From: Halomonas salifodinae
GTDB taxonomy: Bacteria > Pseudomonadota > Gammaproteobacteria > Pseudomonadales > Halomonadaceae
Length of the DNA stretch: 64,000 bases
Assembly: GCF_039522585.1 (NCBI RefSeq)
Contig: NZ_BAAADR010000010.1
Reading direction: 5' to 3' (one strand)
This document shows, in pieces, positions 11 through 47,590 of the stretch. How positions within the stretch are numbered: position 1 is the first letter of the stretch; every line of letters starts with the position of its first letter. A program made the translations under genes and the position numbers. The notes beneath the pieces are model-generated. The model was not told the origin of the DNA. It did no database searches and saw only the letters and a list, made by a program, of their open reading frames with translations.

Positions 11-1204
11 GTGGCGCCCCGTGAGGTCCTGCGGCTACGCCACCATGCGCTGCTGCCGGGGCTGATCAACGCCCATAACCATGCCGGCATGAGCCTGATG
101 CGGGGTTATGCCGACGACCTGCCACTGATGACCTGGCTCAACGAGCATATCTGGCCCGCCGAGGGTTCCCTGGTGGATGCCGATTTCGTCGCCGCCGGGA
201 CGCGCCTGGCCTGTGCCGAGATGCTGTGCAGCGGCACCACCACCTTCGCCGATATGTACCTGGCCCCCGAGGCGGTGGCCGAGGTCGCCGACGAAATGCG
301 GATGCGGGTCCAGCTGTGCACCCCGCTGATCGACTTCCCCACTTCCTGGGCCGCCGACTTCGCCGAGGGCCTGGAACGCACCCAGGCACTGATCGAGCGC
401 TACGCCGAGCATCCCCGGGTGCATCTGGCCCTGGGCCCCCACGCCCCCTATACGGTGGGTGACGCCAGCCTGGCCAGGCTGGCCGAGGCCCGGGAGCGCT
501 GGGGGTTGCCGATCCAGATGCATGTCCACGAGACCCGCGACGAGATCGACCAGGCCCTGGCCCGGGATGGCCGCCGCCCATTGCGCCGGCTCTTCGAGGC
601 CGGCCTGCTGGGCCCCCACTTCCAGGCGGTGCATATGACTCAGGTGGATGATGATGACCTGGCGCTGCTGGCCGAGACCGATACCCGGGTCATCCATTGC
701 CCCCAGTCCAACCTCAAGCTGGCCAGCGGCTTCTGCCCGGTGGCACGGCTCCAGTCGGCCGGCATCACCGTGGGCCTGGGTACCGATGGCGCCGCCAGCA
801 ACAATGACCTGGATCTGTTCGACGAGCTGAAGAGTGCCGCCCTGCTGGCCAAGGGGGTGAGCGGTGATGCCGCCGCCCTGCCCGCCATGGCGGCCCTGGC
901 CATGGCCACCCGCGACGGTGCCCGTGCCCTGGGGCTGGACGACCACCTGGGCCAACTGCGCGAAGGCTTCGCGGCGGACCTGGTTGCCGTGGACCTGGAA
1001 CACCTCAATACCCTGCCGGTGCATCATCCCGCCTCGGCGGTGGTCTATGCGATGCACAGCCACCAGGTGAGCCATGTCTGGGTGGCCGGGCGCCCCCGCC
1101 TCGTCGAGGGGAAATTTATCGATATCGAGCCGGACACCATTCGCGCCGCCACCGAGCATTATCGGCGGCGCCTGGCGTCCCTGCCCGCACAAGGAGAGAG
1201 TTGA
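11..1204 (+). CDS. mtaD: Amidohydrolase of the MtaD / TRZ-ATZ family (5-methylthioadenosine/S-adenosylhomocysteine deaminase-like). The N-terminus probably lies before the window start.
   Basis: Metal-binding HxH motif ([10 protein letters not shown]). Family-typical length. Stop overlaps the ubiG RBS, and the mtaD-ubiG-mupP synteny matches Pseudomonas. Confidence 0.75.
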
Positions 1205-1205
1205 G

Positions 1206-1985
1206 ATGCCGCACACAGCCGATGTCGGCGACTACCGCCATAATAGCGATGCCGCCGATACCAGCGATGCCGGCGACTACCGTGGTAACGTCGATGCCGC
1301 CGAAATCGCCAAGTTCGAGGCCCTGGCCAGCCGTTGGTGGGACAGCGAGGGGGAGTTCAAGCCCCTCCACGAGATCAACCCATTGCGGCTGGACTTCATC
1401 GATGCCCGGACCCGCCTGGCCGGCAAGTCGGTGATCGACGTGGGCTGCGGCGGCGGCATCCTGGCCGAGGCCATGGCCCATCGCGGCGCCCGGGTCACCG
1501 GCATCGACATGGGCGAGGCGCCGCTGGCGGTGGCCCGGCTGCATCTGGCCGAGAGCGACGCGGAGGTGGACTACCGTCGGGCCAGCGCCGAGGAGATGGC
1601 CGCCGAGGCCCCCGGCCGGTATGACGTGGTCACCTGCCTGGAGATGCTCGAGCATGTCCCCGACCCGGCGGCGGTGGTACGCGCCTGCATGACCCTGGTC
1701 AAGCCCGGTGGCGATGTCTTCTTCTCCACCATCAATCGCAACCCCAAGGCCTATGCCTTCGCCATCCTCGGCGCCGAGTATGTGCTGCGGATGCTGCCCA
1801 AGGGCACCCATGACTACCGCAAGTTTATCCGCCCCGCCGAGCTCTCCCGCTGGGCCCGGGAGGCGGAGCTCAAGGTGTGCGAACAGAGCGGCCTGGTCTA
1901 CAACCCGCTGACACGTCGCTACCGCCTCGACCCTCGCGATGTCTCGGTCAACTACCTGATGCACTGCCGCCGGGAGGTTGAATGA
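1206..1985 (+). CDS. ubiG: Ubiquinone biosynthesis O-methyltransferase UbiG.
   Basis: Conserved [14 protein letters not shown]...[14 protein letters not shown] segment and a SAM-binding [13 protein letters not shown] motif. RBS AAGGAGAG precedes the ATG at 1206. The N-terminus carries a 14-aa in-frame tandem duplication. Confidence 0.9.
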
Positions 1986-2073
1986 GCCCCTTGAGTCGCG
2001 CCCTTTGCTACGATCGCTTGGATGCCCGGGACGTCTCGGTGAATTATCTGATGCACTGCCGCCGGGAGGCGCC

Positions 2074-2739
2074 GTGACCGTGAGCGCCCTGCCCCGTGGC
2101 CTGCTCTTCGACCTGGATGGCACCCTGGTGGATACCGCGCCGGACCTGGCCCGGGCCACCAATGCCCTGCGCACCCACCATGGCCTGGCGGCCCTGCCCT
2201 TCGAGACGATCCGCGCCCAGGTCTCCAACGGCGGCAGCGCCCTGGTGACCCTGGCCCTGGGCCTGGCCCTGGAGGCGCCGGGGCACGGCGAGGCAAGGCA
2301 GTTCCTGCTCGACGCCTATGCCCGGGACCTGGCGACCCATAGCCGCCTGTTCCCCGGGCTGCAGCGGCTGATCGACCACTGGAGCCAGGCGCCGCGGGCC
2401 TGGGGCATCGTTACCAACAAGCCCCGCGCCTACACCGAGCCCCTGGTGGCGGCCCTGGGGCTCGATCCCGGCGCCCTGCTGTGTGCCGACGACCTGCCGG
2501 TGAAGAAGCCCGCGCCGGAACCGCTCTGGGCCGCCGCCGAGCGCCTGGGAATCGCCCCGGCGGCGTGCTGGTATATCGGCGATCACCGCCGCGATATGGA
2601 GGCGGCCCGGGCCGCCGGCATGACCGCGGTGGCGGTGGGCTATGGTTACCTGGACGCGACGGACGCCATCGAGGAGTGGCCGGCGGAGTTGCGCTTCGCC
2701 ACCCCCGAGGCCCTGGTTAGCGCCCTGCTCGATCGCTGA
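2074..2739 (+). CDS. HAD-family phosphatase, phosphoglycolate phosphatase/MupP-like (N-acetylmuramic acid 6-phosphate phosphatase).
   Basis: HAD motif I FDLDGTLVDT and motif IV GDHRRDMEAARAAG. GTG start at 2074 preceded by GGGAGG. The earlier ATG at 1978 would add about 32 non-HAD residues. Position downstream of ubiG matches Pseudomonas. Confidence 0.8.
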   Translation: MTVSALPRGLLFDLDGTLVDTAPDLARATNALRTHHGLAALPFETIRAQVSNGGSALVTLALGLALEAPGHGEARQFLLDAYARDLATHSRLFPGLQRLIDHWSQAPRAWGIVTNKPRAYTEPLVAALGLDPGALLCADDLPVKKPAPEPLWAAAERLGIAPAACWYIGDHRRDMEAARAAGMTAVAVGYGYLDATDAIEEWPAELRFATPEALVSALLDR

Positions 2740-2758
2740 TAGGTCAACTACCCAATGC

Positions 2759-2793
2759 AGAACGGGCCCCATGATGGGGCCCGTTCTTGCGTT
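2759..2793. terminator. Rho-independent terminator-like hairpin between the convergent mupP-like and yciK-like genes.
   Basis: gaacgggcccc-atgat-ggggcccgttc stem followed by ttgcgtt. Confidence 0.5.
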
Positions 2794-2892
2794 AGCGTGG
2801 CTCGAGCAAGTTACGCCTTGGGCGGCTGGGCGTCGAAGCCTTGGCCGGTGAGACCGGTGACGCCGCGGCTCTCCTGGCCCATTCAGCCAAAG

Positions 2893-3654
2893 TCAGCCCT
2901 TGGGTGGCTGGGCATCGAAGCGCTGGCCAGTGACCCCGCGGCTGTCCGGGCCCATCAGCCATAGATAGGTGGGCATGATCTCTTCCGGGGTGCGCAGGGT
3001 ATCGGGATCCTCGGCGGGATAGGCACTGCGCCGCATCTGGGTGCGGGTGGCGCCCGGATTGAGGCTATTGACCCGTACCGCGGTGAGGTTCTCCAGCTCG
3101 TCGGCCAGCACTTCCATAAAGCCTTCGGTGGCAAACTTGGAGACCGCGTAGGCGCCCCAGAAGGCCCGCCCCCGGCGCCCCACGCTGGAGGAGGTGAGGA
3201 TCACCGAGGCGTCCTCGGAGGCCTTGAGCAGGGGCAGCAGGGCCTGGGTCATCCAGACCGGGCCATTGAAGTTGACCTGCATCACCTGCTCCCAGAGCTG
3301 GGGGTTGTACTGGTCGAAGGGGGTCAGGCGCCCCAGCAGGCCGGCATTATGCAGGATGCCATCCAGGCGTCCGAACTCCCGCTCCAGGGTCTCGGCCATG
3401 TCCTGGTAATCCTTGAGGGTGGCGCCCTCGAAGTTGAGCGGAAAGATCGCCGGCTGGGGCCCGCCCGCCGCCTCGATCTCGTCGTAGACCTTCTCCAGCT
3501 TGGCGATGGTACGGCCCAGCAGGATCACGGTGGCCCCATGGCGGGCGTAGGCCAAGGCCGCGGCGCGGCCGATACCGTCGCCGGCGCCGGTCACCAGCAC
3601 GATACGCCCCGCCAACAGGTCCGTAGGGGGCCGGTAGTCGATCTTGCAATTCAT
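2893..3654 (-). CDS. Short-chain dehydrogenase/reductase, YciK-like.
   Basis: Rossmann motif TGAGDGIGRA and catalytic YxxxK (YAVSKFA). The MNCKIDY start fits the family length. Confidence 0.8.
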   Translation of the reverse strand: MNCKIDYRPPTDLLAGRIVLVTGAGDGIGRAAALAYARHGATVILLGRTIAKLEKVYDEIEAAGGPQPAIFPLNFEGATLKDYQDMAETLEREFGRLDGILHNAGLLGRLTPFDQYNPQLWEQVMQVNFNGPVWMTQALLPLLKASEDASVILTSSSVGRRGRAFWGAYAVSKFATEGFMEVLADELENLTAVRVNSLNPGATRTQMRRSAYPAEDPDTLRTPEEIMPTYLWLMGPDSRGVTGQRFDAQPPKG

Positions 3655-3667
3655 CGAGGATGACTCC

Positions 3668-4441
3668 TTAGAGGCCGGCGTCGTTGAGGAAGTCACGCCC
3701 CATGACGGCGGCATTGCTGTCCGGGTAGTCGGCGATCAGCCGCTGCAGCAGTTCGCGGCTGGTATCCGGCTGCCCCTGGCGCGCCTTGAGCAGGCCCAGC
3801 TTGTAGAGGGCATCGGGCACCTTGTTGCTCTCGGGGTAGTCGTCCAGCACCGTCTGGAAGGCCGCCGCCGCGGGCTCCAGGCGGGTCTCCGCGGAGTAGA
3901 GCTCGCCCAGCCAGTAGTGGCCATTGGCGGTCAGGTTGGTGTCCGGATAGTCCGCCACGAAGGCCTCGAAGGCGGCGATGGCGGCCGGAAAGTCCCGCGC
4001 CTGGACGCGCTGGAAGGCGGCCTGATAGGCGGCCTGGGCATCGGCACCGGGTGCCGCGCTGCCATCCCCGGCGCTGGCCTCGGCCACCTGGCGGGCCGCC
4101 TCGGCGTCCACCTCCTGGGGGGCCTCGCCGCTGCTGGCCAGCCGCTGCTCCAGATCCAGGTAGCGGGCCTGGGAGTCACGACGCAGCTGCTCCAACTGAT
4201 GGCGAAGCTCCTCCACCTGACCGCGCAACTGCTGGATCTCGCGTTGCTGCTCGTCGAGCTGGTTGAGCAGCATCAGGTTGCCGGAGGCGCCCTCGCGTAC
4301 CTCGGCCTGCTCATAGAAGGTGCGCGAGCGATCCGACAGATCCTCGATCACCGGTTGGGCCAGTACGGAAAGCGGGAGCACCAGGGCTCCCGCACCGCAC
4401 AGTCGGGCCAGACGGCGGCCCCTGTGACTGTGATTCATCAC
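3668..4441 (-). CDS. cpoB: Tol-Pal system protein CpoB/YbgF (TPR).
   Basis: Signal peptide, then a coiled-coil (QQLRGQVEELRHQLEQLRRD) and C-terminal TPR-like repeats. Sits immediately downstream of pal. Confidence 0.85.
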   Translation of the reverse strand: MMNHSHRGRRLARLCGAGALVLPLSVLAQPVIEDLSDRSRTFYEQAEVREGASGNLMLLNQLDEQQREIQQLRGQVEELRHQLEQLRRDSQARYLDLEQRLASSGEAPQEVDAEAARQVAEASAGDGSAAPGADAQAAYQAAFQRVQARDFPAAIAAFEAFVADYPDTNLTANGHYWLGELYSAETRLEPAAAAFQTVLDDYPESNKVPDALYKLGLLKARQGQPDTSRELLQRLIADYPDSNAAVMGRDFLNDAGL

Positions 4442-4454
4442 TCGCTCCTCGGCC

Positions 4455-4982
4455 TCAGTAGGAGAACACCACGCGGCGGTTCTGGGCGTAGGCATCCTCA
4501 TTGTAGCCGCTCACCGCCGGCCGCTCCTCGCCATAGCTGACCACCTCCAGTTGGGAGGGGGAGATGCCCTGCACCGAGAGGAAGCGCTCCACGGACTTGG
4601 CGCGACGCTCGCCCAGGCCCAGGTTGTACTCGCGGGTACCGCGTTCGTCGGTATGGCCCTGCAGCACCACCCGGGCATTGGGGTTATTGCGCAGGTACTG
4701 GGCATGGGCACTCAGCACCGGCTCGAATTCGCCGCGAATGCGCTCGCTGTCATAGTCGAAGTAGATGGTGCGCACGCTGGGAATCCCGGCCTGCTGACCA
4801 TTCTGGTCGCTACCGCCGACCCCGACGCCGCCGACCTGACCACTACCTACCCCACTGGTGCTGGCACCGTCGCGGCTGCCATCCATGGAGCCGTCCTGGG
4901 TGCCGCCCGTGCTGGAACAGCCGGCCACGAAGGCGAGAGAGAGCGCGACGGCCAGGCTCCTGGCATAAGGCTTGAATTGCAT
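4455..4982 (-). CDS. pal: Peptidoglycan-associated lipoprotein Pal (OmpA-like).
   Basis: Lipobox LAFVAGCSS and OmpA-domain motifs (NLGLGERRAKSV, NRRVVF). Confidence 0.9.
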   Translation of the reverse strand: MQFKPYARSLAVALSLAFVAGCSSTGGTQDGSMDGSRDGASTSGVGSGQVGGVGVGGSDQNGQQAGIPSVRTIYFDYDSERIRGEFEPVLSAHAQYLRNNPNARVVLQGHTDERGTREYNLGLGERRAKSVERFLSVQGISPSQLEVVSYGEERPAVSGYNEDAYAQNRRVVFSY

Positions 4983-5008
4983 TTTCCACTCCTTGATGAA
5001 TGACAATA

Positions 5009-6292
5009 TCAGTTCAGAAACGGCGACCATGCGGGCTCCCGCACGTCGCCCTGGGCCGCCGGCAGGCGGAAGGAGGCGCGCCCATCCGCCGACACGGCCC
5101 CTAGTATCCCGGCATTACCCTGCTGGGTGGCGAAGAGTACCATGGCCCCGTTGGGGGCAACACTGGGGGATTCGTCCCAGCGGCCCTCGGTGAGGGTCAC
5201 CAGGCGGTCGGTCTCCAGGTCCTGGCGGGCCACCTGATAGCCCTGGTTGCCGCGATGGATCATGAACAGTGCCTCGCCGTCCGGGCTGACGCGCCCCCGG
5301 GCATTGTAGTTGCCGGTAAAGGTGAGGCGTTCCACCTGGCCACTGGCGAGGTCATAGCGATAGAGCTGGGGACCACCGCTGCGATCCGAGGTGAAGACCA
5401 GGCTGCGGCCGTCCGGGGCAAAGCTGGGTTCGGTATCGATGGCACTGTTGTTGGTCAGCCGCCGGAAGTCGCGGCTGGCGATATCCATCAGATAGATTTC
5501 CGGCTGGCCATCCCGGGACAGCGACATGGCCAGTTGGCGGCCGTCCGGCGACCAGGCCGGGGCGCTGTTGATCCCGGTGAAGGAGCTAGCCCGGACCCGC
5601 TGGCCGCTACCCACGTCCTGGATATAGATGGCCGGGCGTTCGGTCTCGAAGGAGACATAGGCCAGCTTGCCGCCATCCGGCGACCAGGCCGGGGACATGA
5701 TCGGCTGGTCCGAGTCGAGGATCTGCTGGCTATTGCGACCATCGGCATCGGCGATATGCAGGCCATAGCGACGCGCGTCGCCGGCGCCCTGGGCGGTGAC
5801 ATAGGCGATGCGGGTGGAGAAGGCGCCGCGGATGCCGGTGATCGCCTCGAAGATCTGGTCGCTGATGTAGTGGGCGGCGGCGCGCAGGCGCTGTGGGTCG
5901 GCGGTGACCACCTCGCCCAGCTCGCGGCGTTCGCCGTAGACATCGAGGAGCTCGAAACGCACCCGATAGGTGCTGCCCTCGGCCTCGACGTCGCCCACCA
6001 CCAGGTAATCGCTGTCCACGGCCCGCCAGTCGCGATAGTTGACGTCCTCGCTGCGGCTGGGCCGGGAGATCAGCGAGTCGCGGGACAGCGGCTCGAACTG
6101 GCCGCTGCGCGCCAGATCATCGCCGATGATCCGCGCCAGGTCCTCCGGCAGCGCCTCGCCGCCGAAGGGCACGATGGCGATGGGGATGGCGCGGTCGCTG
6201 CCGCGGGTAATCTCGATGGTCAGATTGGCCTGGGCCTGCTGCACGAAGAGCAGCAGGCAGGCCGCCAGCCATAGGCCAAGATAGCGTTTCAT
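5009..6292 (-). CDS. tolB: Tol-Pal system beta-propeller protein TolB.
   Basis: Signal peptide and repeated beta-propeller blades (PAWSPDG...). Position between tolA and pal. Confidence 0.9.
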
Positions 6293-7407
6293 CAGCGGAT
6301 ATCCCCCGGTCGAAATCTCAGATTGAATTGGCGGAACTGGTGCTGTGCCGCCGGCGGCAATTGGCGCATCTCGCGGAAGGGCGCGGCACGCTCGACGGCC
6401 TGCAGCGCCGAGCGATCGAAGCCGGCATCCCCACTCCCGCGCAGGACACTCGCGCCCACCAGTTCCCCGGTGGGCAGGAGATTGAGTTGCAGCGTCGCCT
6501 CCAGGCCATTGACGCTACCCGGCGGAATGATCCAGGCCTGCTCCACCGCGCGGCGCACCAGACTCTGGAAGCCATTGGCCGCCTCCGAGGCCTGGCGCGC
6601 ATTGGCGATGGCCTCCTGCTCGCTCTCGATCAGGCTATCCAGGCTACCATTGGCGGCTTCGGCGGCCCGGCGGGCGGCTTCCTCCTGACGGCGCTGTTCC
6701 TCGGCCTGGCGCTGGCGTTCGGCCTCTTCCTCCTGGCGGCGCTGCTCCTCGGCCTGGCGTTGGCGTTCGGCTTCTTCCTCCTGGCGGCGTTGCTCCTCCG
6801 CCTGGCGCTGGCGTTCGGCCTCTTCCTCTTGACGGCGCTGTTCCTCCGCCTGGCGTTGGCGTTCGGCCTCTTCCTCCTGGCGGCGTTGCTCCTCGGCCTG
6901 GCGTTGGCGTTCGGCCTCTTCCTCCTGACGGCGCTGTTCCTCCGCCTGGCGCTGGCGTTCGGCCTCTTCCTCCTGGCGGCGCTGCTCCTCGGCGGCCTGC
7001 TCCTCACGTAGCCGCGCCTGACGTTCGGCTTCCTCGGCGCGCCGCCGGGCCTCGGCCTGGGCCTCTTCGGCCGCCTGGCGCTGGGCTTCGGCCTCCTCGG
7101 CCACCTGTGCCTGCCGGCGCTCCTGCTCGGCGGCCTGCTCCTGAGCCTGGCGTTCCGCCTCCTGGGCCGCCGCCTCCTCCTCGGCCTGACGGGCCGCGGC
7201 ACGAGCCCGGGCCTCCTGGGCGCGCTGGGCCTGGTCGGTGGCGGTCTCGGTGCTGACCAGGGTGGCCTGGACCACCGTGGCGGAGGGGGGCTCCGTCTTG
7301 GCGCTGGGCACCAGGCTCAGCATGCTCACGGCCACCACCAGCACATGCACGCCGATGGCAAGCAGGGTGGGCAGGCCATAGCCGACACGACTCTCCTTTC
7401 TGGCCAT
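6292..7407 (-). CDS. tolA: TolA, carrying a long charged helical repeat region.
   Basis: N-terminal TM anchor, a highly repetitive E/A/R/Q-rich domain, and a C-terminal TolA domain. Position between tolR and tolB. Confidence 0.85.
6690..7010. repeat. In-frame 48-bp tandem repeat array (about 6-7 copies) inside tolA, encoding [16 protein letters not shown] units.
   Basis: Near-identical 48-nt periodicity is visible in the DNA, and 16-aa periodicity in the translation. Confidence 0.85.
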
Positions 7408-17347: not shown

Positions 17348-18400
17348 ATGTTCGATCATCCCGATTTCGACCACCATGAACAGGTGGTCTACGGCTGTGA
17401 CGAGGCCAGCGGCCTCAAGGCGATCATCGCCATCCACAATACCCACCTGGGCCCCGCCCTGGGTGGCCTGCGCATCTTCCCCTACGCCAGTGACGGCGAG
17501 GCCCTCAGCGATGTGCTGCGACTGTCCCGCGGCATGACCTACAAGTCGGCCCTGGCCGGCCTGCCCCTGGGGGGCGGCAAGGCGGTGATCATTGCCGACC
17601 CCAGGCGCGACAAGACCCCGGAGCTGCTGCGCGCCATGGGTCGATTGGTGGAACGCCTGGGCGGACGCTATATCACCGCCGAGGACTCCGGCAGCAGTGA
17701 GACGGACATGCAGTGGATCGCCGAGGAGACCGCTTATGTCACCGGCCTGCGCCGCAGCGCGGGCGAGTCCGGCGACCCCTCGCCCTTTACCGCCCTGGGG
17801 GTCTTTCACGGGCTGCGCGCCGCGGTGCGGCACGGCCTGGGACGCGATGATCTCGAGGGGGTACGCGTCGCCGTCCAGGGCGTCGGCAGCGTGGGGGCCC
17901 ACCTGGCCCGCTCGCTCGAGAAAGCCGGCGCCAAGCTGGTGATCAGCGATATCGATGCCAGCGCCGTGGCGCGGCTCGCCGAGGAGCTCGGCGCGGCTAC
18001 CCTCCCCCCCGGCGAGATCCTCGATGCCGAGGTGGATGTCTTCGCCCCCTGCGCCCTGGGTGGCGCCATCGATGAGGCCGCCTGCCGGCGACTCAAGGCC
18101 AGGGTGGTGGCGGGGGCGGCCAATAACCAGTTGGCGACGCCCGCCGCCGGCGAGGCCCTGCACCGTCGCGGCATCCTCTATGCGCCGGACTACGTGGCCA
18201 ACGCCGGTGGCGTGATCGAGGTCGCCTGGCAGCGTCGCAGCGACTACGATCGCCAGGCGGTACTGGCCCAGGTGGAACGCATCGGCGCCACCCTGGAGAC
18301 GATCTTTGCCCGCGCCAAGCGAGAGGGCAAGCGCCCCGAGCAGGTCGCCGACCGCCTGGCCGAGGAGCGCTTTCGCCCGGATCACCCGCGAGCCGCCTAG
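17348..18400 (+). CDS. Glu/Leu/Phe/Val dehydrogenase family protein (leucine dehydrogenase-like).
   Basis: GGGK catalytic-lysine region (LPLGGGKAV) and NAD-binding GVGSVGAHLA. Confidence 0.8.
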   Translation: MFDHPDFDHHEQVVYGCDEASGLKAIIAIHNTHLGPALGGLRIFPYASDGEALSDVLRLSRGMTYKSALAGLPLGGGKAVIIADPRRDKTPELLRAMGRLVERLGGRYITAEDSGSSETDMQWIAEETAYVTGLRRSAGESGDPSPFTALGVFHGLRAAVRHGLGRDDLEGVRVAVQGVGSVGAHLARSLEKAGAKLVISDIDASAVARLAEELGAATLPPGEILDAEVDVFAPCALGGAIDEAACRRLKARVVAGAANNQLATPAAGEALHRRGILYAPDYVANAGGVIEVAWQRRSDYDRQAVLAQVERIGATLETIFARAKREGKRPEQVADRLAEERFRPDHPRAA

Positions 18401-18470: not shown

Positions 18471-18640
18471 CTATTCCAGCAGCTCGTGTTTGACCATCAG
18501 GGCGGTTATTGACACCGGCACCATCACTCCAGCAGTTCGTACTTGACCACCAGGGCGGTTATTGACACCGGCACCATCACTCCAGAAACTCGTGCTTGAC
18601 CACCACGGCGGTATTACGCGGCACGATGGTCTTGTTGCGG
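18471..18640. repeat. Three tandem ~57-bp units duplicating the last 19 codons and stop of the yihY-like gene.
   Basis: Reverse-strand translations of the three copies: ...VVKHEFLE*, ...VVKYELLE*, ...MVKHELLE*. Confidence 0.85.
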
Positions 18641-20704: not shown

Positions 20705-20874
20705 ACGCCTCGGGGGCGCCCCAAGGCGCCCCCGATGGTTTATCTCCCGGCCTCACCCCCTGCAGGAAGTCCCGCGGCAGCTTCATCATCTGCCGCCACA
20801 GTTTCTCGACGCCGGGTTTATGCACCGGGGAGCAGTGGCCGACGAGAGCGCGTATTTCACGCCCGGCCTCTCTC

Positions 20875-21792
20875 CTAGCCCTGCAGGAAGTCCCGCGGCA
20901 GCTTCATCATCTGCCGCCACAGTTTCTCGACGCCGGGCTTGTGCACCAGGGAACAGCGATAGAGACGGATCTCCAGCGGCACATCCCAGGCCATATCACC
21001 GGCACGCACCAGGCGCCCGCCGGCCAGCTCCTCGCGGATACAGAAGTCGGGGATCCAGGCCATTCCCACCCCCTGCATCACCATGCCCTTGAGGCCCTCC
21101 GCCATGGCGGTCTCGTAGACGGTGCGCAGGCGCAGGCGCAGCGGGTCATTCTTGAGCAGCATGCGCACGCTGCGCCCCAGGAAGGCACCCTGGGTATAGG
21201 AGAGATAGGGAATCGAGCCTTCGCCCTCCAGGGAAAAGCGGGGAGCGCCCTCGCCGTCGGGCAGGCAGACCGGAATCATCTTCACCTGGCCGATGGAGAA
21301 GGAGGGGAAGACCTTGGCGTCGAGCTGCATGGTGGCATAGGGGTCATAGTAGCCCAGCATCAGGTCACAGTTGCCCTCCCGCAGCACATGAATTGCCTCC
21401 CCCATGTTCATGGCCACCAGCCGGGTGGGCAACTCGCCGGTGCCCTGCTGCAGGCGCGAGATCCACTGAGGATAGAAGGTCAGGGCCAGGGAGTGGGCGG
21501 CGACGATATCCAGGGCCTCGTTGGCCATGGAGACGCCGCGCAGATGCCCCAGGCACTCGTTGAGCTGCTCCACCAGGTGACGCGCCGTGACCAGGAACAG
21601 CTGCCCCTCGGGAGTCAGCCCCACCGGGGTGGTGGAGCGATCCACCAGGGTCACCCCCACGGCCTGTTCCAGGGAACGAATGCGCCGGCTGAAGGCGGGC
21701 TGGGTCACATGGCGCTGGCGCGCCGAGGCCGAGAAACTGCGGGTATTGGCCAGGGCGACGAAGTCTTCCAGCCATTTGGTTTCGAGGTTCAC
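20875..21792 (-). CDS. LysR-family transcriptional regulator.
   Basis: N-terminal HTH (FVALANTRSFSASARQRHVTQPAFSRRIRSLE) and a LysR substrate-binding domain. GTG start after GGGAG. Confidence 0.85.
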   Translation of the reverse strand: MNLETKWLEDFVALANTRSFSASARQRHVTQPAFSRRIRSLEQAVGVTLVDRSTTPVGLTPEGQLFLVTARHLVEQLNECLGHLRGVSMANEALDIVAAHSLALTFYPQWISRLQQGTGELPTRLVAMNMGEAIHVLREGNCDLMLGYYDPYATMQLDAKVFPSFSIGQVKMIPVCLPDGEGAPRFSLEGEGSIPYLSYTQGAFLGRSVRMLLKNDPLRLRLRTVYETAMAEGLKGMVMQGVGMAWIPDFCIREELAGGRLVRAGDMAWDVPLEIRLYRCSLVHKPGVEKLWRQMMKLPRDFLQG

Positions 21793-21879
21793 CACGACTC
21801 CCGATGGACGACAGGGCAACAGGCGGCGGGACGCCGCACCGAAGCGGGTAATTTAGCGGTAAGTCGATAATAGGCCAAG

Positions 21880-22070
21880 GGGCGGCGTCGGCTTTTCGCA
21901 AGCCGTCCGTCCGCCGACACAAGCCTCACTGTATCGTTGATATCGGGTAGCCGGCATCGGCTTTCCGAAAGCGCCCCCTCCGCCGACACAAGCCTTACTG
22001 TATCGTTGATATCGGGTAGCCGGCATCGGCTTTCCGAAAGCGCCCCCTCCGCCGACACAAGCCTTACTGC
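21880..22070. repeat. Intergenic tandem repeat of a 69-bp unit, about 3 copies, directly downstream of the cls stop codon.
   Basis: CCGCCGACACAAGCCTTACTG... unit starts at 21911, 21980 and 22049. The last copy merges with the cls stop. Confidence 0.85.
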
Positions 22071-23482
22071 ATGGGCGACATCAGATAGGCGGCGCGGGAG
22101 ATCAGCTTGCGCCACAGGGCACGCCCCTCGATCTCCTCGTAGCCGATGCGCCGGCAGGCGGCGAAGTCCTGCTCCAGCATCAGGCGAACCTCGGCGGCGA
22201 AGCGGCGATCCGGCACGAAGGCGGTGATCTCGAAGTTGAGCCGGAAGGAGCGGTTATCGAGGTTGATGGTCCCCACGCTGGCGCTATGATCGTCGATCAG
22301 CATCACCTTCTGGTGCAGGAAGCCCGGCTGGTAGCGGTAGACCTTGACCCCCGCCTTGAGCATATCCGGCAGGAAGGAGAAGGCCGAGAGGAAGACCAGC
22401 AGATGGTCGGGGCGTTCGGGGATCATGATGCGCACGTCCACCCCACGCATGGCGGCCAGGCGCAGGGCATCCTGGACCCCCTGGTCCGGGACGAAATAGG
22501 GGCTGGTCACCCAGAGCCGTTCCTCGGCGCTATGAATGGCCTGCTGCACCAGCAGGCTGGCGGTGTCCTGGCGATCGGCGGGCCCCGAAGGGACGATCAC
22601 CACGTTCTGGCACTCCTCGCAGGTGCTGCGCGGCTCCCACGCCAGGCTCAACACCTCGTCGGTGGCCCAGTGCCAATCCTCCCAGAAAGCCTCCTGCAGG
22701 CCCAGCACGCTCGGCCCCTCCAGCTTCAGGTGGGTATCCCGCCAGGCACCGTGCCTGGTGCCCTGCCCCAGGTACTCCACGCCCACGTTGAAGCCGCCCA
22801 GCCAGCCCTGATGACCGTCCACCACCAGCACCTTGCGGTGATTGCGGAAATTGAGCTGGAAACGGTGCCGCCAGCCGCGGGAGGAGTTGAAGGCGCTGAC
22901 ATGCACCCCGGCCTCCGTCAGATCCCTGAGGTAACCGTCGCCGAGCTTGTGGCTGCCGATCTCGTCGTAGAGGAAGTAGACCCGCACGCCCCGCTCCGCG
23001 GCTCGCTCCAGGCGGCGCTTCAGCTCATGGCCCAGGGCATCGTCGCGGACGATAAAGAACTGCACCAGCAGATACTCCTCCGCCGCCTCGATACCGGCGA
23101 AGAGGCTTTCGAAGGTGGCCTCGCCATCGATCAGCAGTTGGGCGCGGTTGCCGCTGGTCAGCGGCATCATGGCCAGTTGCTCCACGGCGCGGATATCGCC
23201 ATGACCGGGATCGGCCCGATAGGGCTCCAGGCGCTCCCGGTAGCCGATCAGCACCCGGCGCAGCACGGTGTCGCGCTCGCCCCGGGCGGAGACATAGCCG
23301 TAGAAGCGTGGACGACCGAAGACCCAGTAGGCGGGCAAGGCCACATAGGGAAAGGTGACCAGGGAGATGATCCAGGCCACGGCGCCCTGGGAAGTGCGAC
23401 TGGACATCAGGGCAAGCAGCGCCGACAGGATACCCAGCACATGTATCAGGAAGATACCCAGGCCCAGTAACCAGGCGGTCAT
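22064..23482 (-). CDS. cls: Cardiolipin synthase.
   Basis: Two HKD motifs (HRKVLVVDG and HQKVMLIDD) and N-terminal TM helices. Confidence 0.9.
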   Translation of the reverse strand: MTAWLLGLGIFLIHVLGILSALLALMSSRTSQGAVAWIISLVTFPYVALPAYWVFGRPRFYGYVSARGERDTVLRRVLIGYRERLEPYRADPGHGDIRAVEQLAMMPLTSGNRAQLLIDGEATFESLFAGIEAAEEYLLVQFFIVRDDALGHELKRRLERAAERGVRVYFLYDEIGSHKLGDGYLRDLTEAGVHVSAFNSSRGWRHRFQLNFRNHRKVLVVDGHQGWLGGFNVGVEYLGQGTRHGAWRDTHLKLEGPSVLGLQEAFWEDWHWATDEVLSLAWEPRSTCEECQNVVIVPSGPADRQDTASLLVQQAIHSAEERLWVTSPYFVPDQGVQDALRLAAMRGVDVRIMIPERPDHLLVFLSAFSFLPDMLKAGVKVYRYQPGFLHQKVMLIDDHSASVGTINLDNRSFRLNFEITAFVPDRRFAAEVRLMLEQDFAACRRIGYEEIEGRALWRKLISRAAYLMSPMQ

Positions 23483-35299: not shown

Positions 35300-35839
35300 A
35301 TGAGCAAGAGCCCCGAACGACTGCTGATCATCGACGACGACGAGATGTTCTGCCATGTGATGGAGCGCGCCATGAGCCGCCGTGGCTATGAGGTGCTGGT
35401 GGCCCACGATGCCGAGGAGGCCCTGGCCAAGGCGCATCAGGCGCCACCGGCCCTGGCCACCCTGGACCTCAAGCTGGAGCACGACTCCGGCCTCAAGCTG
35501 TTGCCGGAGCTGCTGGAGGCGGTACCCGACTGCCGGGTGGTGGTGCTCACCGGCTACTCCAGCATCGCCACCGCCGTGGAGGCGATCAAGCTGGGCGCCG
35601 TCAACTACCTGTGCAAGCCCGCCGACGCCGACGAAATCCTCGCCGCCTTCGACAAGCAGGCCGGCGACCCGGGCGCCGAACTGGCCGATAACCCGCCCTC
35701 CATCAACCGGGTCACCTGGGAGCATATCCAGAAGGTGCTCCAGGAGCATGACGGCAATATCTCCGCCACCGCCCGGGCCCTGGGCATGCATCGCCGGACG
35801 CTGCAGCGCAAGTTGCAGAAGCGTCCCGTACGGCGATAA
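35300..35839 (+). CDS. regA: Response regulator of the RegA/PrrA/ActR type (REC plus Fis-type HTH).
   Basis: REC domain with phospho-acceptor Asp and a C-terminal Fis-like HTH. Confidence 0.85.
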   Translation: MSKSPERLLIIDDDEMFCHVMERAMSRRGYEVLVAHDAEEALAKAHQAPPALATLDLKLEHDSGLKLLPELLEAVPDCRVVVLTGYSSIATAVEAIKLGAVNYLCKPADADEILAAFDKQAGDPGAELADNPPSINRVTWEHIQKVLQEHDGNISATARALGMHRRTLQRKLQKRPVRR

Positions 35840-35900
35840 GGCGCCGCACCCTCGACATGGCAAGTGACGGAAGCGCCCGGTACGGCGATAAGGCGCCGGG

Positions 35901-40827: not shown

Positions 40828-40854
40828 GCCTGTCGCGAGCCGGCCTAGCCATTG

Positions 40855-41713: not shown

Positions 41714-41798
41714 GCTGTGTTGCCTCTTGTCTTGGGGAGGAGCCCGGCGATGCCGGCCTCTCGGAGTCGCTGTCGTCGCGGTGCCTTGGGTCGCGGTC

Positions 41799-42497
41799 TC
41801 AGTCGCGCACGGTGCGCTTCTCGATGCGCTTCTCGAAGCTGCCCTGGATAATGCGATCCACATAGATGCCGGGGGTATGGATCTGGCTGGGATCCAGCTC
41901 GCCGGGCTCGACGATCTCCTCCACTTCCACCACGGTGATACGCCCGGCGGTGGCGGCCACCGGATTGAAGTTCTGGGCGGTATGGCGATAGACCACGTTA
42001 CCGTAGCGGTCGGCCTTCCAGCCCTTGACGATGGCGAAGTCGCCGGTGATGGCCTCCTCGAGGATATGCGGGCGGCCGTTGAACTCGCGCACCTCCTTGC
42101 CCTCGCCCACCGGGGTGCCGTAGCCGGTGGCGGTATAGAAGGCGGGGATGCCGGCGCCGCCGGCGCGCATCTTCTCGGCCAGGGTGCCCTGGGGTGTCAG
42201 CACCACCTCGATCTCGCCGTCGAGCATCTGGCGCTCGAAGAGGGCGTTCTCGCCCACGTAGGAGGCGAGGATCTTGCTGATCTGGCGATCCTCCAGCAGC
42301 ACGCCGAGGCCGAAGCCGTCCACGCCGCAGTTGTTGGAGACCACGGTGAGGTCGCGCACGCCGCGGCGCTTGATCTCGTCGATCAGGTTCTCGGGGATGC
42401 CGCACAGCCCGAAGCCCCCGGCGATCACGGTCATGCCACTCTCGATGCCGTCCATCGCCTCCTCAAAGGAGTAGACCCGCTTGTCGAATCCGGCCAT
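41799..42497 (-). CDS. scoA: 3-oxoacid CoA-transferase subunit A.
   Basis: Start [14 protein letters not shown]. Confidence 0.9.
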
Positions 42498-42539
42498 TGC
42501 TCTGCCTCGTCTTGTCGTCGGAGAAGTGGTTCCAGTGTT

Positions 42540-42618
42540 GCCCCGGACAATATATTTGTTAAGTTTGTTTTTTTTATGGATTAATTTAATGGACATATAA
42601 ATAGCGAGGCCGGATGCG
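42540..42618. promoter_or_regulatory. AT-rich divergent promoter region between scoA and a lysR-type regulator.
   Basis: Uniquely AT-rich stretch (tttgttaagtttgttttttttatggattaatttaatggacatataaata) in an otherwise ~68% GC context. Confidence 0.4.
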
Positions 42619-43509
42619 ATGACCGTCAAACAGCTGCGGGCCTTCCTGGCGGTGGCCCAGTCCCTGAGCTTTACCCAGGCCTGCGAGCGCCTGCACCTCT
42701 CCCAGCCGGCCCTGAGCCTGGCGATCAAGGGGCTGGAGGAGAGCCTCGGCGGCCCGCTTTTGACCCGCAGCACCCGCAGCGTGCGCCTGACCCCGGAGGG
42801 CGAATCCCTGGTGCCACTGGCCAAGCGGCTGCTGGCGGAGTGGGACAACACCGAGGAGCTGTTGCGCCAGCGCTTCACCCTGCAACTCGGCCGAGTGGCG
42901 GTGGCCGCCATGCCCGCCTTCGCCTGCAACCTGCTGCCCGCGGCGCTGATGGCCTTCCGCCGCCGCCACCCGCGTATCACGGTGACGGTGCACGACGTGA
43001 TCAACGAGCAGGTGATCGAGATGGTGCGCCGCGGCCAGGTGGAGCTGGGCATCGCCTTCGCCCCGGAGGCCGACCGGGGCCTGACCTTTACGCCGCTGTT
43101 CGAGGATCGCTTCGTGGCGGTGGTGCCCGCGGACTCGCCGCTGGCCGAGGCCGGCACCCTGCGCTGGGCCGACCTGCTGGCCTATGATCTGATCACCCTG
43201 CAGCGCCCCTCCATGGTGCGCCTGCTGCTGGAGTCGGAGCTGGCCGCCCAGGGCATCGAGCTGGCCGTGACCTTCGAGAGCCACCAACTGGTCACGGTGG
43301 GGCGCATGGTGGCCAGCGGCCTGGGGGTCAGCGCGGTGCCGGCCCTGTGCCGCCAGCAGATGCACGAGCTGGGCGCCCGCTGCCTGCCCCTGGAGGCGCC
43401 GGTCATCTCGCGCCCGGTGGGGGTGCTCTCCCCGGCCGGCCAGGAGCTCTCGGTGGCGGCCCAGGCGCTCCGGGAGATCCTCGCCGAGCCGCTACGGGGC
43501 ATGGCGTAA
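42619..43509 (+). CDS. LysR-family transcriptional regulator, divergent from scoAB.
   Basis: HTH and a LysR substrate-binding domain. Confidence 0.85.
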
Positions 43510-43595
43510 GACGGTGACAGGGCGTGATAGCAGAGTGGGAGGCCAGGCCGCCCCTCCCTGCTAGGGTATAGGTAAAGCCCATAAGGGAGGCCGCC

Positions 43596-45548
<1,953 letters not shown>

Positions 45549-45642
45549 CCTCTCCTCCCGGCAGCGTGAGCGCCCGGGCTGGGCAGCCCGGGCGGCTTAC
45601 AGTAGCATTGGCACGGTTGTTTCAGCGCATCGAGGAGCGCGC

Positions 45643-46515
45643 ATGCCAATACTCAAGGGGAGCGTCAGCCTGTTCCTGCTGACCCTGACCACCCTGCTCT
45701 GGGGCCTTCCGCTGATGGTCCTGACCCTGGTCAAGGTGATCACCCCCGGTCACCGGCTGCGTCTCAGGGTGCTCCAGGGGCTGAATTTCATCGCCCTCAA
45801 CTGGATCGGTCTCAACCTCTGGTGGATGCGCCACTGGCTCAAGCCCCGGCTTCAGGCCGAGGTGCCCGAGGGACTGAGCCAGGACCAGCGCTGGCTGGTG
45901 CTCTCCAATCACCGCAGCTGGACCGATATCTTTATGCTGCAGCTGGTGCTGCATCGACGTATCCCCATGCCACGCTTCTTCCTCAAGCGCCAGCTGATCT
46001 GGGTGCCCATCGTCGGCCTGGCCTGGTGGGCCCTGGAGTTCCCCTTTATGCGTCGCCTCAATCGCGAGCAGCGCGAGCGCCATCCGCACCTGGCCCGGCG
46101 TGATCGCGAGGCCACCGAGCGCATGTGCGAGCGCGCCCGGGAGCTGCCCATCGCCATCTATAACTTCGTCGAGGGCACCCGCTTTACCCCCGCCAAGCAT
46201 GATGCCCAGCAGAGTCCCTATCGTCACCTGCTCAGGCCCCGGGCCGGTGGCACCGCCCAGGTGCTGGGCCTGCTCGGTGACCAGCTCAGTGGTATCCTCG
46301 ATGTGACGCTGGACTATGCCAGGCCCGATCCCACCTTCTGGGACTTCCTGTGTGGCCGCGAGGGCGAGATTCGGCTATATGCCCGGCGCCTCGAGGTACC
46401 CAGTTGGATGCCGGGGGGCGACTATCACGAGGATCCGGACTACAAGGAACGCTTCCACTCATGGCTCAACGCCCTTTGGCAAGACAAGGATCGGCGTCTC
46501 GACGACTGGCGCTGA
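45643..46515 (+). CDS. Lysophospholipid acyltransferase family protein (PlsC/YihG-like).
   Basis: Acyltransferase HxxxxD motif (SNHRSWTDIFML), N-terminal TM and a FVEGTRF motif. Confidence 0.7.
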   Translation: MPILKGSVSLFLLTLTTLLWGLPLMVLTLVKVITPGHRLRLRVLQGLNFIALNWIGLNLWWMRHWLKPRLQAEVPEGLSQDQRWLVLSNHRSWTDIFMLQLVLHRRIPMPRFFLKRQLIWVPIVGLAWWALEFPFMRRLNREQRERHPHLARRDREATERMCERARELPIAIYNFVEGTRFTPAKHDAQQSPYRHLLRPRAGGTAQVLGLLGDQLSGILDVTLDYARPDPTFWDFLCGREGEIRLYARRLEVPSWMPGGDYHEDPDYKERFHSWLNALWQDKDRRLDDWR

Positions 46516-47393
46516 TCCTGATCCTGCTGGCCCTCCTGGTCAGCGGCTGTGCCGGCCACTCGGGGGAGACCCGCCGCCTGGGCCAGGCCCCCATCGCCGG
46601 CAACTGGATCACCATCCAGCGCGGCGACACCCTGGGCGCCATCGCCCGCCGCGCCGATGTGCCCCTGGCCCGGCTCCAGCGCTTCAACCCCGGTGTGGAT
46701 GCCCGCCGCCTGGCGGTGGGCCAGCGGCTCCTGGTGCCCACGGCCAACGAGCGCGCCCCCTCCGGCGGCCCCTACCGCTACCAGATTCGTCCCGGCGACA
46801 CCTACTCCTCGGTAGCGCGTCATTTCGGTTCCACCAGCGCCCGTATCCAGGCCGCCAACCCCGGCCAGCAGCCCAATCGCCTGCGGGTCGGTCAGGTCAT
46901 CCAGGTGCCCCTGCGCGGCGGCGCGCCCAGCCGAAGCACCGCCAGCCGTCCCGCGAGCGGCGGTTCGTCACGCCCCGCGTCCACTCCCGCTCGCCCGGAT
47001 CCCGGTGACCTGCCATCGTCGGCACGCAACTGGCCCTGGCCCCTCAACGACTACCGGGTGATTCGCCACTACGGCACCGACAGCCGCGGTACCCTGCAGC
47101 CCATGCTGCTGGCCACCGGCAATGGCGCCCAGGCCAAGGCCGTGGCGGATGGCGAAGTGCGCTTCGCCGGCAGCATGCGCCAGCTCGGGCGGGTGGTCAT
47201 CGTCCACCATGACGGCAACCTGCAGAGCGTCTATGCCCAGTGCGAACGGTTGTCGGTGGAGGTGGGGCGCCGGATCAGCCGCGGCACCCCGCTATGCACC
47301 GTGGGACGCCATGGGGAGACCGGGCGCTACGATCTCTTGTTCGATATGCGCCATGGCGGCAGGCCCATCGATCCGCGGCGGGTCTTGCGCTAA
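46461..47393 (+). CDS. Lipoprotein with two LysM domains and a C-terminal M23 peptidase domain (NlpD-like).
   Basis: Lipobox LLVSGC and two LysM repeats. Start uncertain; the ATG chosen overlaps the upstream gene by ~55 nt. Confidence 0.75.
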   Translation: MAQRPLARQGSASRRLALILILLALLVSGCAGHSGETRRLGQAPIAGNWITIQRGDTLGAIARRADVPLARLQRFNPGVDARRLAVGQRLLVPTANERAPSGGPYRYQIRPGDTYSSVARHFGSTSARIQAANPGQQPNRLRVGQVIQVPLRGGAPSRSTASRPASGGSSRPASTPARPDPGDLPSSARNWPWPLNDYRVIRHYGTDSRGTLQPMLLATGNGAQAKAVADGEVRFAGSMRQLGRVVIVHHDGNLQSVYAQCERLSVEVGRRISRGTPLCTVGRHGETGRYDLLFDMRHGGRPIDPRRVLR

Positions 47394-47590
47394 CGCCTCC
47401 TGTTCGGCGCTTCCGGTTCCCGCCATGGCGGCAGACCCATCGATCCGCGGCGGGTCTTGCGCCGATAGCCACACCAAACACGGGGCCTTCGGGCCCCGCT
47501 GTCATCCCGCCGTCATCCCATCGCCCCACCCCTGTCATCGCCGAGACTCAGGCTAGGCGCTATAACGAGCGATGATAGTCAGGAGTGGCG

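What the first reader, a model, noticed from the sequence alone, without database searches (positions are those of the whole stretch)
1200..47470. Pervasive short imperfect duplications at gene termini (at least 9 loci in 64 kb)
Direct repeats of 28-150 bp sit at or just beyond the stop codon, or within the first codons, of many genes. 3' duplications: yciK-like (2819-2890 vs 2893-2960), ubiG (1929-1972 vs 2026-2069), yihY (three copies, 18471-18640), lysR (20745-20830 vs 20870-20950), cls (69-bp array 21880-22070), regA (35805-35835 vs 35862-35895), M23 peptidase (47350-47400 vs 47417-47467), gcvP (150 bp). A 5' duplication lies inside ubiG (1218-1301), and a 48-bp array inside tolA. Copies are 85-95% identical, so they are not recent assembly artefacts. 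Such density of terminal duplications in core genes is unusual. It points to a lineage-specific process: slippage or template switching at terminators, or repeated element insertion/excision at gene ends.
Basis: seen in the sequence. Interest (0 to 1): 0.7.

Follow-up and report, generated by a model that had tools for sequence, protein, structure and literature searches.

The report
Tandem duplications straddling gene stop codons
In this Halomonas genome about one gene in ten carries a short leftover copy of its own tail just past the stop codon; these are unstable tandem duplications that survive where they do no harm, and they are unusually frequent here but not a new kind of element.

Summary
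At seven loci (ubiG/gph, yciK, yihY, lysR, cls, regA, M23 peptidase) the last 30-100 nt of a gene, stop codon included, is repeated head-to-tail 52-121 nt downstream. The first copy keeps the gene intact; the later copies are decaying remnants.

The repeats appear in an independent short-read assembly of the same strain. Copy number differs among strains 97-99% identical: M23 2 vs 4.5, regA 2 vs 1, lysR 2 vs 1, yihY 3 vs 2. Two remnants (yciK, yihY) are shared in degenerate form with sister species.

The density is lineage-specific: 6 of 59 genes here against 1 of 1,248 in 80 related Halomonadaceae loci. Four of 11 convergent junctions are hit and none of 11 divergent ones.

Best explanation: microhomology-mediated tandem duplication with later expansion and contraction, filtered by selection so that only copies spanning a stop codon or lying in frame survive. 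The ubiG "filler" is a copy of the start of the next gene, gph, so no stop-codon-specific mechanism is needed.

gcvP is a different event. A 3.2-kb low-GC defence island is integrated in its 3' end and brought its own 147-nt gene tail, as prophage e14 does in icd. The ubiG 5' and tolA repeats are ordinary in-frame coding repeats.

Why this lineage has so many is unexplained.

The parts
1220..1303 (+). In-frame 18/27-nt repeats in the N-terminal extension of UbiG, which lies ahead of the conserved domain.
   Evidence: The TIGR01983 UbiG profile starts at residue 33. UbiG length varies: 259 aa in the window, 253 aa in strain L095, 244 aa in sister species L098.
1894..1985 (+). ubiG 3' end, functional copy (unit 0 of a 92-nt duplication). 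Stop codon TGA at 1983-1985.
1986..2077 (+). Remnant unit: a copy of the gph 5' end (~30 nt) fused to a copy of the ubiG 3' end. It forms a 31-aa ORF (1982-2077) whose ATG overlaps the ubiG stop (ATGA) and whose stop overlaps the gph GTG start at 2074 (GTGA).
   Evidence: Sister species L098 has the ubiG stop overlapping the gph ATG, with no duplication. The 31-aa ORF is called as a gene in L085 and L095.
2893..2974 (-). yciK (SDR) 3' end, functional copy. Stop at 2893-2895.
2811..2892 (-). yciK remnant, starting directly after the functional stop. It forms an intact 23-codon ORF and carries a 9-nt internal insertion.
   Evidence: left part homologous to the upstream coding sequence, p<0.001. 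Present in L095 and, degenerate and split by a ~240-nt insertion, in L098.
6678..6993 (-). In-frame 48-nt (16-codon) array, 6.6 copies, inside tolA.
   Evidence: TolA is 371 aa here, 354 aa in L095 and 370 aa in L098.
18471..18629 (-). yihY 53-nt array. Functional unit 18577-18629; remnants 18524-18576 and 18471-18523. Each remnant is an 18-codon ORF whose ATG overlaps the preceding TGA (TGATG).
   Evidence: Strain L105 has one remnant fewer. B. pacifica L002 has two degenerate units and L001 none.
20754..20995 (-). lysR (HypT-like) 121-nt duplication. Functional unit 20875-20995 (stop TAG). The remnant 20754-20874 is 95% identical over 78 nt, with its stop shifted by 1 nt.
   Evidence: Absent from L001-L006 and from the same-species strain L105. 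No lysR hit in the other loci except an independent duplication in L058.
21857..22132 (-). cls 69-nt array. The unit is the last ~25-30 nt of cls plus ~40-45 nt of downstream hairpin region. Gene end 22064-22132; two full extra units; a native terminal unit.
   Evidence: L001 and L002 have only the terminal unit.
35788..35891 (+). regA 52-nt duplication. Functional unit ends at the TAA at 35837-35839; remnant 35840-35891. CGCCG(G) microhomology at both borders.
   Evidence: Present in L091, absent from L092 and L093, where regA and the convergent gene are 9 nt apart.
47322..47468 (+). M23/LysM peptidase 72-nt duplication. Functional unit ends at the TAA at 47391-47393. The 42-nt core of the remnant is 98% identical. 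A GC-rich hairpin follows at 47480-47499.
   Evidence: Strain L082 has about 4.5 units.
56335..56481 (+). gcvP 3' end, attL-like: native left part plus island-borne right part (protein ends ...INEYRD*).
56482..59682 (.). 3.2-kb low-GC island with three genes: a PD-(D/E)XK nuclease (PADLOC PDC-S26), a 139-aa hypothetical protein, and a PcfJ-like protein. No integrase domain found.
   Evidence: GC 0.52-0.57. Pfam, PADLOC and NCBIfam results. Island absent from strain L082.
59683..59829 (+). gcvP 3' remnant, attR-like: island-borne left part plus native right part (...IDSYRE*, as in the empty site of L082).

Best explanation
Seven loci (ubiG/gph, yciK, yihY, lysR, cls, regA, M23) are short local tandem duplications of 50-120 nt.

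Inferred mechanism. During replication, a segment bounded by a few bases of microhomology is copied twice, by slipped or switched template. Once two copies exist, misalignment between them adds or removes units, so each locus behaves as a small variable-number tandem repeat.

Inferred filter. Duplications arise anywhere, but most inside genes or in promoter regions are removed by selection. A duplication that spans a stop codon leaves the first copy reading through to its own stop, so the protein is unchanged. The second copy is a dead tail in the 3' untranslated region, upstream of the terminator hairpin where one is present. This filter gives the 3'-end and convergent-junction bias. It also explains why the only internal repeats are in frame (ubiG N-terminal extension, tolA).

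Shown: the remnants then decay by substitutions and small indels.

gcvP is a separate event. A 3.2-kb defence island carrying its own 147-nt copy of the gcvP tail recombined once with the chromosomal tail (Campbell-type integration). The result is two chimeric copies flanking the island.

Unexplained: why this lineage accumulates so many duplications.
For: - Head-to-tail units with no foreign DNA between copies.
- The ubiG 'filler' is a copy of the gph 5' end. Sister species L098 shows the undisturbed ATGA stop/start overlap.
- The left parts of the yihY and yciK remnants are homologous to the coding sequence upstream (p<=0.001).
- Copy number differs among strains of 97-99% identity: M23 2 vs 4.5, regA 2 vs 1, lysR 2 vs 1 and yihY 3 vs 2.
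- Remnants evolve freely: 3/52 differences between the window and L091 at regA and 5/82 between the window and L095 at yciK. The copies in L002 and L098 are degenerate.
- Microhomology at the borders: CGCCG(G) at regA, GCCG..GGAGAT at lysR, CT at yciK.
- Junction bias: 4/11 convergent, 3/39 co-directional, 0/11 divergent (p=0.016).
- Units at different loci are unrelated.
- The same strain assembled from short reads is identical.
- gcvP: chimeric pattern and an empty site in L082.
- Published precedent: microhomology-mediated tandem duplication is reported as the dominant source of tandem repeats, with GC-rich arms favoured (bioRxiv 10.64898/2026.02.28.708716).
Against: - The roughly 100-fold excess over other Halomonadaceae in the same orthologous region is not explained by this model.
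- Third codon positions carry 26 of 39 differences between functional and remnant copies. That exceeds a simple expectation of ~0.48 (p=0.015), though not one of 0.55 that allows for GC3 bias.
- In lysR, M23 and regA the part of the remnant nearest the junction is far more diverged than the rest (95-98% vs ~50-65%). This needs gene conversion or junction-associated mutation to explain, and neither was shown.
- Right borders lean towards the stop codon (KS p=0.04, before allowing for detection bias).
- Microhomology arms cannot be recovered at the older loci.
Confidence: 0.7

Rival explanations
1. A mutational process tied to the ends of transcription units creates duplications preferentially just past stop codons. 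Candidates are breaks or template switching where convergent transcription, R-loops or termination stall the fork. Under this view the 3' bias is mechanistic and not due to selection.
For: - Six 3' ends against no 5' ends.
- Convergent junctions hit 4/11.
- Right borders skewed towards the stop codon (KS p=0.04).
- The same lysR 3' end is independently duplicated in H. stenophila L058.
Against: - Borders range from 0 to +45 nt past the stop. The ubiG event spans an overlapping stop/start junction with no terminator and no convergent partner.
- Both gene orientations are affected equally, four on each strand, in a window of uniformly negative GC skew.
- In-frame repeats in the ubiG 5' region and tolA show that tandem duplication also occurs inside genes.
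- The skew is weakened by detection bias towards units holding at least ~35 nt of coding sequence.
Confidence: 0.15
2. The short repeats are footprints of integrative elements that each carried a replacement 3' end for their target gene, as at gcvP, and later lost their cargo.
For: - The same window holds a clear case at gcvP.
- Differences between copies are biased towards third codon positions, and stop codons often differ between copies (TGA/TAA, TAG/TGA), as between orthologues.
Against: - No foreign DNA lies between the copies.
- The ubiG spacer is gph sequence.
- Units are head-to-tail and vary in number like tandem repeats.
- No chimeric native/foreign pattern was seen at regA or lysR when empty-site strains were aligned.
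- Nine different target genes would need nine specificities.
Confidence: 0.05
3. The remnants are kept by selection because they function. They might serve as small translated ORFs that preserve translational coupling (ubiG-ORF31-gph, the yihY TGATG ORFs), or as donors for gene conversion that varies protein C-termini.
For: - Intact ORFs with overlapping stop/start codons at ubiG and yihY, also in B. pacifica.
- Nine of the 28 window-versus-L095 differences in yciK fall in the last 52 nt, and some match the remnant.
Against: - The remnants at regA, lysR and M23 are not intact ORFs in the homologous frame.
- Units are gained and lost freely between strains.
- The second yihY unit in L002 is frameshifted.
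- Short ORFs stay open by chance in 68% GC DNA.
- This rival would explain retention, not origin.
Confidence: 0.08
4. Assembly or mixed-strain artefact.
For: Diverged tandem copies can arise when contigs from different strains are joined.
Against: - Independent short-read contigs of the same strain are 100% identical across three of the loci.
- Four other datasets carry the same loci with their own copy numbers.
Confidence: 0.01

Closest known systems
Microhomology-mediated tandem duplications that grow into tandem repeats; bacterial VNTR/minisatellite loci as used in MLVA typing
   Same: Head-to-tail units of tens of bases, short GC-rich homology at the borders where these are still readable, reversible gain and loss of units between close strains, and expansion to arrays of 3-4.5 units. 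The mechanism is described in bioRxiv 10.64898/2026.02.28.708716 and PMC8639346.
   Different: Here nearly all units contain the stop codon and tail of the adjacent gene. The density is about 100 times that of the same region in 80 related species.
MIRU (mycobacterial interspersed repetitive units)
   Same: Tandem units of 50-100 nt between genes in a GC-rich genome, holding small ORFs whose ends overlap the stop and start codons of the flanking genes. The MIRU properties are from my own knowledge of Supply et al. 1997, which was not retrieved here. The ubiG-ORF31-gph and yihY arrangements show this architecture.
   Different: MIRUs are one dispersed family of related units. Here each locus has its own unit, copied from the neighbouring gene, with no similarity between loci.
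Prophage e14 (and phage 21) integration in the 3' end of icd
   Same: For gcvP only. The element brings a partial copy of the gene tail (163 bp for e14, 147 nt here). Integration leaves an intact gene with a partly foreign C-terminus and a pseudo-tail at the far end (PMC6379469).
   Different: The island has no integrase gene among its three ORFs and is only 3.2 kb. Its cargo is a candidate defence nuclease plus a PcfJ-like protein.
REP/BIME and MITE intergenic repeats
   Same: Short repeats lying between genes, often between convergent genes.
   Different: Those are dispersed and palindromic. These are local direct copies of the adjacent coding sequence and are found nowhere else in the window.

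Membership tests
Microhomology-mediated tandem duplication / bacterial VNTR | Direct head-to-tail copies with no unrelated DNA between them | tested here: met
   Register plots. The ubiG spacer was identified as a copy of the gph 5' end. The left parts of the yihY and yciK units are homologous to the upstream coding sequence.
Microhomology-mediated tandem duplication / bacterial VNTR | Copy number varies between closely related strains | tested here: met
   M23 2 vs 4.5 units, regA 2 vs 1, lysR 2 vs 1 and yihY 3 vs 2.
Microhomology-mediated tandem duplication / bacterial VNTR | Short identical arms at both borders of the duplicated segment | tested here: inconclusive
   CGCCG(G) at regA, GCCG..GGAGAT at lysR, only CT/CC at yciK and yihY. 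The borders are eroded at ubiG, M23 and cls.
Microhomology-mediated tandem duplication / bacterial VNTR | Arises de novo and reverts at measurable frequency within a population | not testable with these tools
   Needs deep sequencing of cultures.
MIRU-type interspersed repeat family | Units at different loci are related to one another | tested here: not met
   All-against-all blastn of the units gives only 8-12-nt chance matches.
MIRU-type interspersed repeat family | Unit ORFs overlap the stop and start codons of the flanking genes | tested here: met
   ATGA and GTGA overlaps at ubiG-ORF31-gph. TGATG overlaps at yihY. Not seen at the other loci.
REP/BIME/MITE | Dispersed copies and palindromic or terminal-inverted structure | tested here: not met
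   Gene tails have no other match in the window. Units are unrelated between loci.
Diversity-generating retroelement (template/variable repeat pair) | Mismatches confined to adenines of the template copy | tested here: not met
   The substitution spectrum is mixed: C>T 9, T>C 7, C>G 6, G>A 5, and others.
Diversity-generating retroelement (template/variable repeat pair) | Reverse transcriptase gene nearby | not tested
   Not all window ORFs were scanned. None of the annotated neighbours is a reverse transcriptase.
Integrative element in the 3' end of a protein gene (e14/icd type) - gcvP only | Partial gene copy as a direct repeat on both sides of the inserted DNA | tested here: met
   56335-56481 and 59683-59829, 93.8% identical.
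Integrative element in the 3' end of a protein gene (e14/icd type) - gcvP only | Reciprocal chimeric pattern (native/foreign, foreign/native) and an empty site in a relative | tested here: met
   Alignment with strain L082, which lacks the island.
Integrative element in the 3' end of a protein gene (e14/icd type) - gcvP only | Element-encoded integrase | tested here: not met
   The three island ORFs give PDDEXK_4/PDC-S26, no hit, and PcfJ.
Transposon target-site duplication | Short identical duplication flanking a mobile element | tested here: not met
   No element lies between the short copies. The copies are 50-120 nt long and diverged.

The most novel reading that the evidence does not exclude
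This Halomonas salifodinae-type lineage has a still-active, lineage-specific mutational process that makes 50-120-nt duplications preferentially at the 3' ends of transcription units, especially where two genes converge. Under this reading the bias is not simply ordinary duplications being filtered by selection. The remnants would then feed variation back into protein C-termini by gene conversion.
Probability: 0.12. Interest if true: 0.6.

Novelty: new member of a known kind. Interest (0 to 1): 0.35.

Why it matters
- It gives a clear natural example of where short tandem duplications can persist in a compact bacterial genome: across stop codons, above all between convergent genes.
- It shows how such duplications lengthen intergenic spacers, separate overlapping genes (ubiG/gph) and create small chimeric ORFs.
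- The loci are ready-made strain-typing markers for this species.
- The roughly 100-fold excess over relatives points to a difference in replication or repair, or in population history, that could be found by comparing whole genomes.
- For annotation, these remnants can be miscalled as genes. The 31-aa ORF already is.

Tried and rejected
1. A stop-codon-precise mechanism. In register every unit ends with a stop codon, which at first looked like a border fixed at the stop. This is trivial, because both copies contain the stop. The ubiG 'filler' proved to be gph 5' sequence. The lysR and regA spacers begin with copies of the native downstream sequence. Borders therefore range from 0 to +45 nt.

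2. Replacement by foreign alleles (homology-facilitated illegitimate recombination). This was suggested by the third-position bias and by the differing stop codons. It was rejected for the short repeats: lysR remnant changes are unique to the remnant, the yciK insertion is an internal 9-nt slip, and no donor-like spacer was found.

3. Gene conversion between remnant and gene. It is only weakly indicated at yciK: of nine clustered differences, two or three match the remnant. It is not claimed.

4. Context of the island. PcfJ homologues were fetched. They sit in larger defence islands elsewhere, not beside gcvP, and no integrase was seen. The integration machinery remains unknown.

5. Extending the sampled genome. 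Look-ups returned only short contigs that break at the repeats. The one 5.5-kb extension held no further case.

6. Literature. Full-text searches for a prior description of stop-spanning terminal duplications found none. The general mechanism papers were found.

7. Rfam and tRNA scans of the window were empty.


Full report
**Source and setting**

The window is 64-72% GC apart from one low-GC stretch. It comes from a Halomonadaceae genome.
- Its Gph protein is 100% identical to an NCBI 'Halomonas salifodinae' entry.
- The closest species representatives are H. salifodinae IM328 (L001, Cls 96% aa) and Bisbaumannia pacifica (L002, 93%).

**Checking the observation**

Every listed repeat is present. 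I called genes with a codon-usage model trained on the window and checked doubtful calls against Pfam.
- Comparing the last 90 nt of each gene with the next 400 nt gives six clear hits out of 57 genes, with scores of 39-136. The reversed-sequence control never exceeds 28. No 5' end matches its upstream region.
- cls has a 69-nt array that overlaps only the last ~25 nt of the gene.
- The last 145 nt of gcvP recur 3.2 kb downstream at 93.8% identity.
- A protein-level scan found no older remnants.
- The repeats are not assembly errors. Short-read contigs of run DRR723593 are 100% identical to the window across the ubiG, yciK and M23 loci, and other strains carry the same loci.

**Anatomy**

Printed in register, each locus is a head-to-tail array whose units each end with a stop codon. 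Periods are 92 (ubiG), 82 (yciK), 53 (yihY, three units), 121 (lysR), 69 (cls), 52 (regA) and 72 nt (M23). The first unit is the real end of the gene. The later units lie in the 3' untranslated stretch. Where a GC-rich hairpin is present (yciK, yihY, lysR, M23), the remnants lie upstream of it.

I first read this as a border fixed at the stop codon, but that does not hold.
- **ubiG.** The sister lineage (L098) has the ubiG stop overlapping the gph start (GAATGAGCCCCCTGCCC...). The 29-nt 'filler' after the window's ubiG stop is a copy of that gph start. The duplicated segment therefore ran from ~60 nt inside ubiG to ~30 nt inside gph. The product is a 31-aa chimeric ORF, with a Gph N-terminus and a UbiG C-terminus. 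Its ATG overlaps the ubiG stop and its stop overlaps the present gph GTG start. Gene callers annotate it.
- **regA and lysR.** The spacer begins with 7 and ~10-18 nt copied from the native downstream sequence.
- **cls.** The unit includes ~45 nt of downstream hairpin region.
- **yihY and yciK.** Only here does the copy start within 0-3 nt of the stop. The whole unit is homologous to the coding sequence upstream.

Right borders thus range from 0 to +45 nt past the stop. The lean towards the stop is marginal (KS p=0.04) and is partly a detection bias.

**Dynamics**

Strains 97-99% identical to the window differ in unit number.
- M23: 2 units here and about 4.5 in L082, with the distal units more degenerate.
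- regA: the duplication is present here and in L091 but absent from L092 and L093, where regA and the convergent gene are 9 nt apart.
- lysR: duplication absent from L105, which also has one yihY remnant fewer.
- ubiG and yciK: duplications present in L095.

Older events are shared with sister species in degenerate form.
- The yciK remnant is in L098, split by a ~240-nt insertion.
- Two yihY remnants are in B. pacifica, but none in IM328.
- The lysR duplication is absent from L001-L006 and scored no hit in the other orthologous loci, apart from an independent duplication in L058.

Remnants drift freely between strains: 3/52 differences at regA and 5/82 at yciK.

**Enrichment**

- The same scan on 80 orthologous 21-kb loci of other Halomonadaceae gives one strong hit in 1,248 genes, against six in 59 here (p=4e-8). 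That one hit is an independent, perfect 94-nt duplication at the same lysR end in H. stenophila.
- TRF finds four non-tolA arrays of period 40 or more in 1.6 Mb of those loci.
- Within the window, 4 of 11 convergent junctions are hit, 3 of 39 co-directional and 0 of 11 divergent (p=0.016).

**Mechanism**

The shown facts are these:
- local direct copies;
- borders at variable positions;
- short GC-rich identities at the borders that are still readable (CGCCG(G) at regA, GCCG..GGAGAT at lysR);
- unit gain and loss between strains;
- neutral decay of remnants;
- no similarity between units of different loci;
- no adenine-specific mismatch pattern.

These fit microhomology-mediated tandem duplication followed by expansion and contraction. 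That process is reported as the main source of tandem repeats and is favoured by GC-rich arms. The step from mutation to the observed distribution is inferred. A duplication spanning a stop codon leaves the protein unchanged and touches no promoter, so it is tolerated. The same reasoning explains the convergent-junction bias and why the only internal repeats are in frame, in the ubiG N-terminal extension and in tolA. Both of those also vary in length between strains.

**What this does not explain**

- The large excess in this lineage.
- The third-codon-position bias of differences between copies: 26 of 39, p=0.015 against 0.48 and 0.10 against 0.55.
- The much stronger divergence of the junction-proximal part of the lysR, M23 and regA remnants.

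Gene conversion between the gene and its remnant could account for the last two. The evidence is thin: differences between strains cluster in the duplicated zone of yciK and at the edge of the lysR zone.

**gcvP**

This locus is a different kind of event. The two copies flank 3.2 kb of 52-57% GC DNA. That DNA encodes three proteins:
- a PD-(D/E)XK nuclease matching the PADLOC candidate system PDC-S26 (E=1.5e-31);
- a 139-aa protein with no family match;
- a PcfJ-like protein.

Strain L082 has an empty site. Against it, the gene-proximal copy is native on the left and foreign on the right (the protein now ends INEYRD instead of IDSYRE). The distal copy is the reverse. That is the signature of one reciprocal crossover between a circular element carrying a 147-nt gcvP tail and the chromosomal tail, as for e14 in icd. 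No integrase is present. PcfJ homologues elsewhere sit in larger defence islands, not next to gcvP.

**Verdict**

- The kind of feature is known. The density in this lineage is the interesting and unexplained part.

Noticed in passing
window 62416-62545: A perfect 7-nt microsatellite, AAGGAGC x18.6 (a Shine-Dalgarno-like unit), begins inside the TAA stop of ppnN (61056-62417). The short-read contig L102 of the same strain breaks there.
   Followed up: no
window 56482-59682: Low-GC island of three genes: a PD-(D/E)XK nuclease matching PADLOC candidate system PDC-S26, a 139-aa unknown protein, and a PcfJ-like protein. Homologues at 56% identity or less lie in larger defence islands (GmrSD, HipA) of Vreelandella and Halomonas.
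   Followed up: partly
L098 about 6700-6990 (sister species, downstream of yciK): An insertion of about 240 nt flanked by the 9-nt direct repeat CTGAATAAG splits the old yciK remnant. It looks like a small mobile element with a target-site duplication.
   Followed up: no
L058 12507-12696 (Halomonas stenophila): An independent, perfect 94-nt x2 tandem duplication at the 3' end of the same lysR orthologue, next to a stretch masked as N.
   Followed up: partly
window 17348-18400: An ELFV-type amino-acid dehydrogenase gene (best match tryptophan dehydrogenase ScyB, below cut-off) lies between yihY and acyP here and in L001 and L002. It is absent from L003-L006, where acyP follows yihY directly.
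   Followed up: no
window 2893-2945 and 20957-20980: Differences between strains cluster in or at the edge of the duplicated zones. Nine of 28 yciK differences against L095 fall in the last 52 nt. Six synonymous lysR differences against L105 fall within 20 nt. This may reflect gene conversion with the remnants or imported alleles.
   Followed up: partly
L001 11512-11661: H. salifodinae IM328 has about 150 nt between cls and lysR that have no counterpart in the window.
   Followed up: no
L072 2693-2927 and L006 2483-2610: Other Halomonadaceae show a 90-nt x2.6 array, a 42-nt x2 array, and short microsatellites (CTTACGG, GCGCCCA) right after the stop codon of the same upstream gene.
   Followed up: no
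window 1-64000: No Rfam family reaches its gathering score, not even a glycine riboswitch near gcvT/gcvH/gcvP, and there is no tRNA gene.
   Followed up: no
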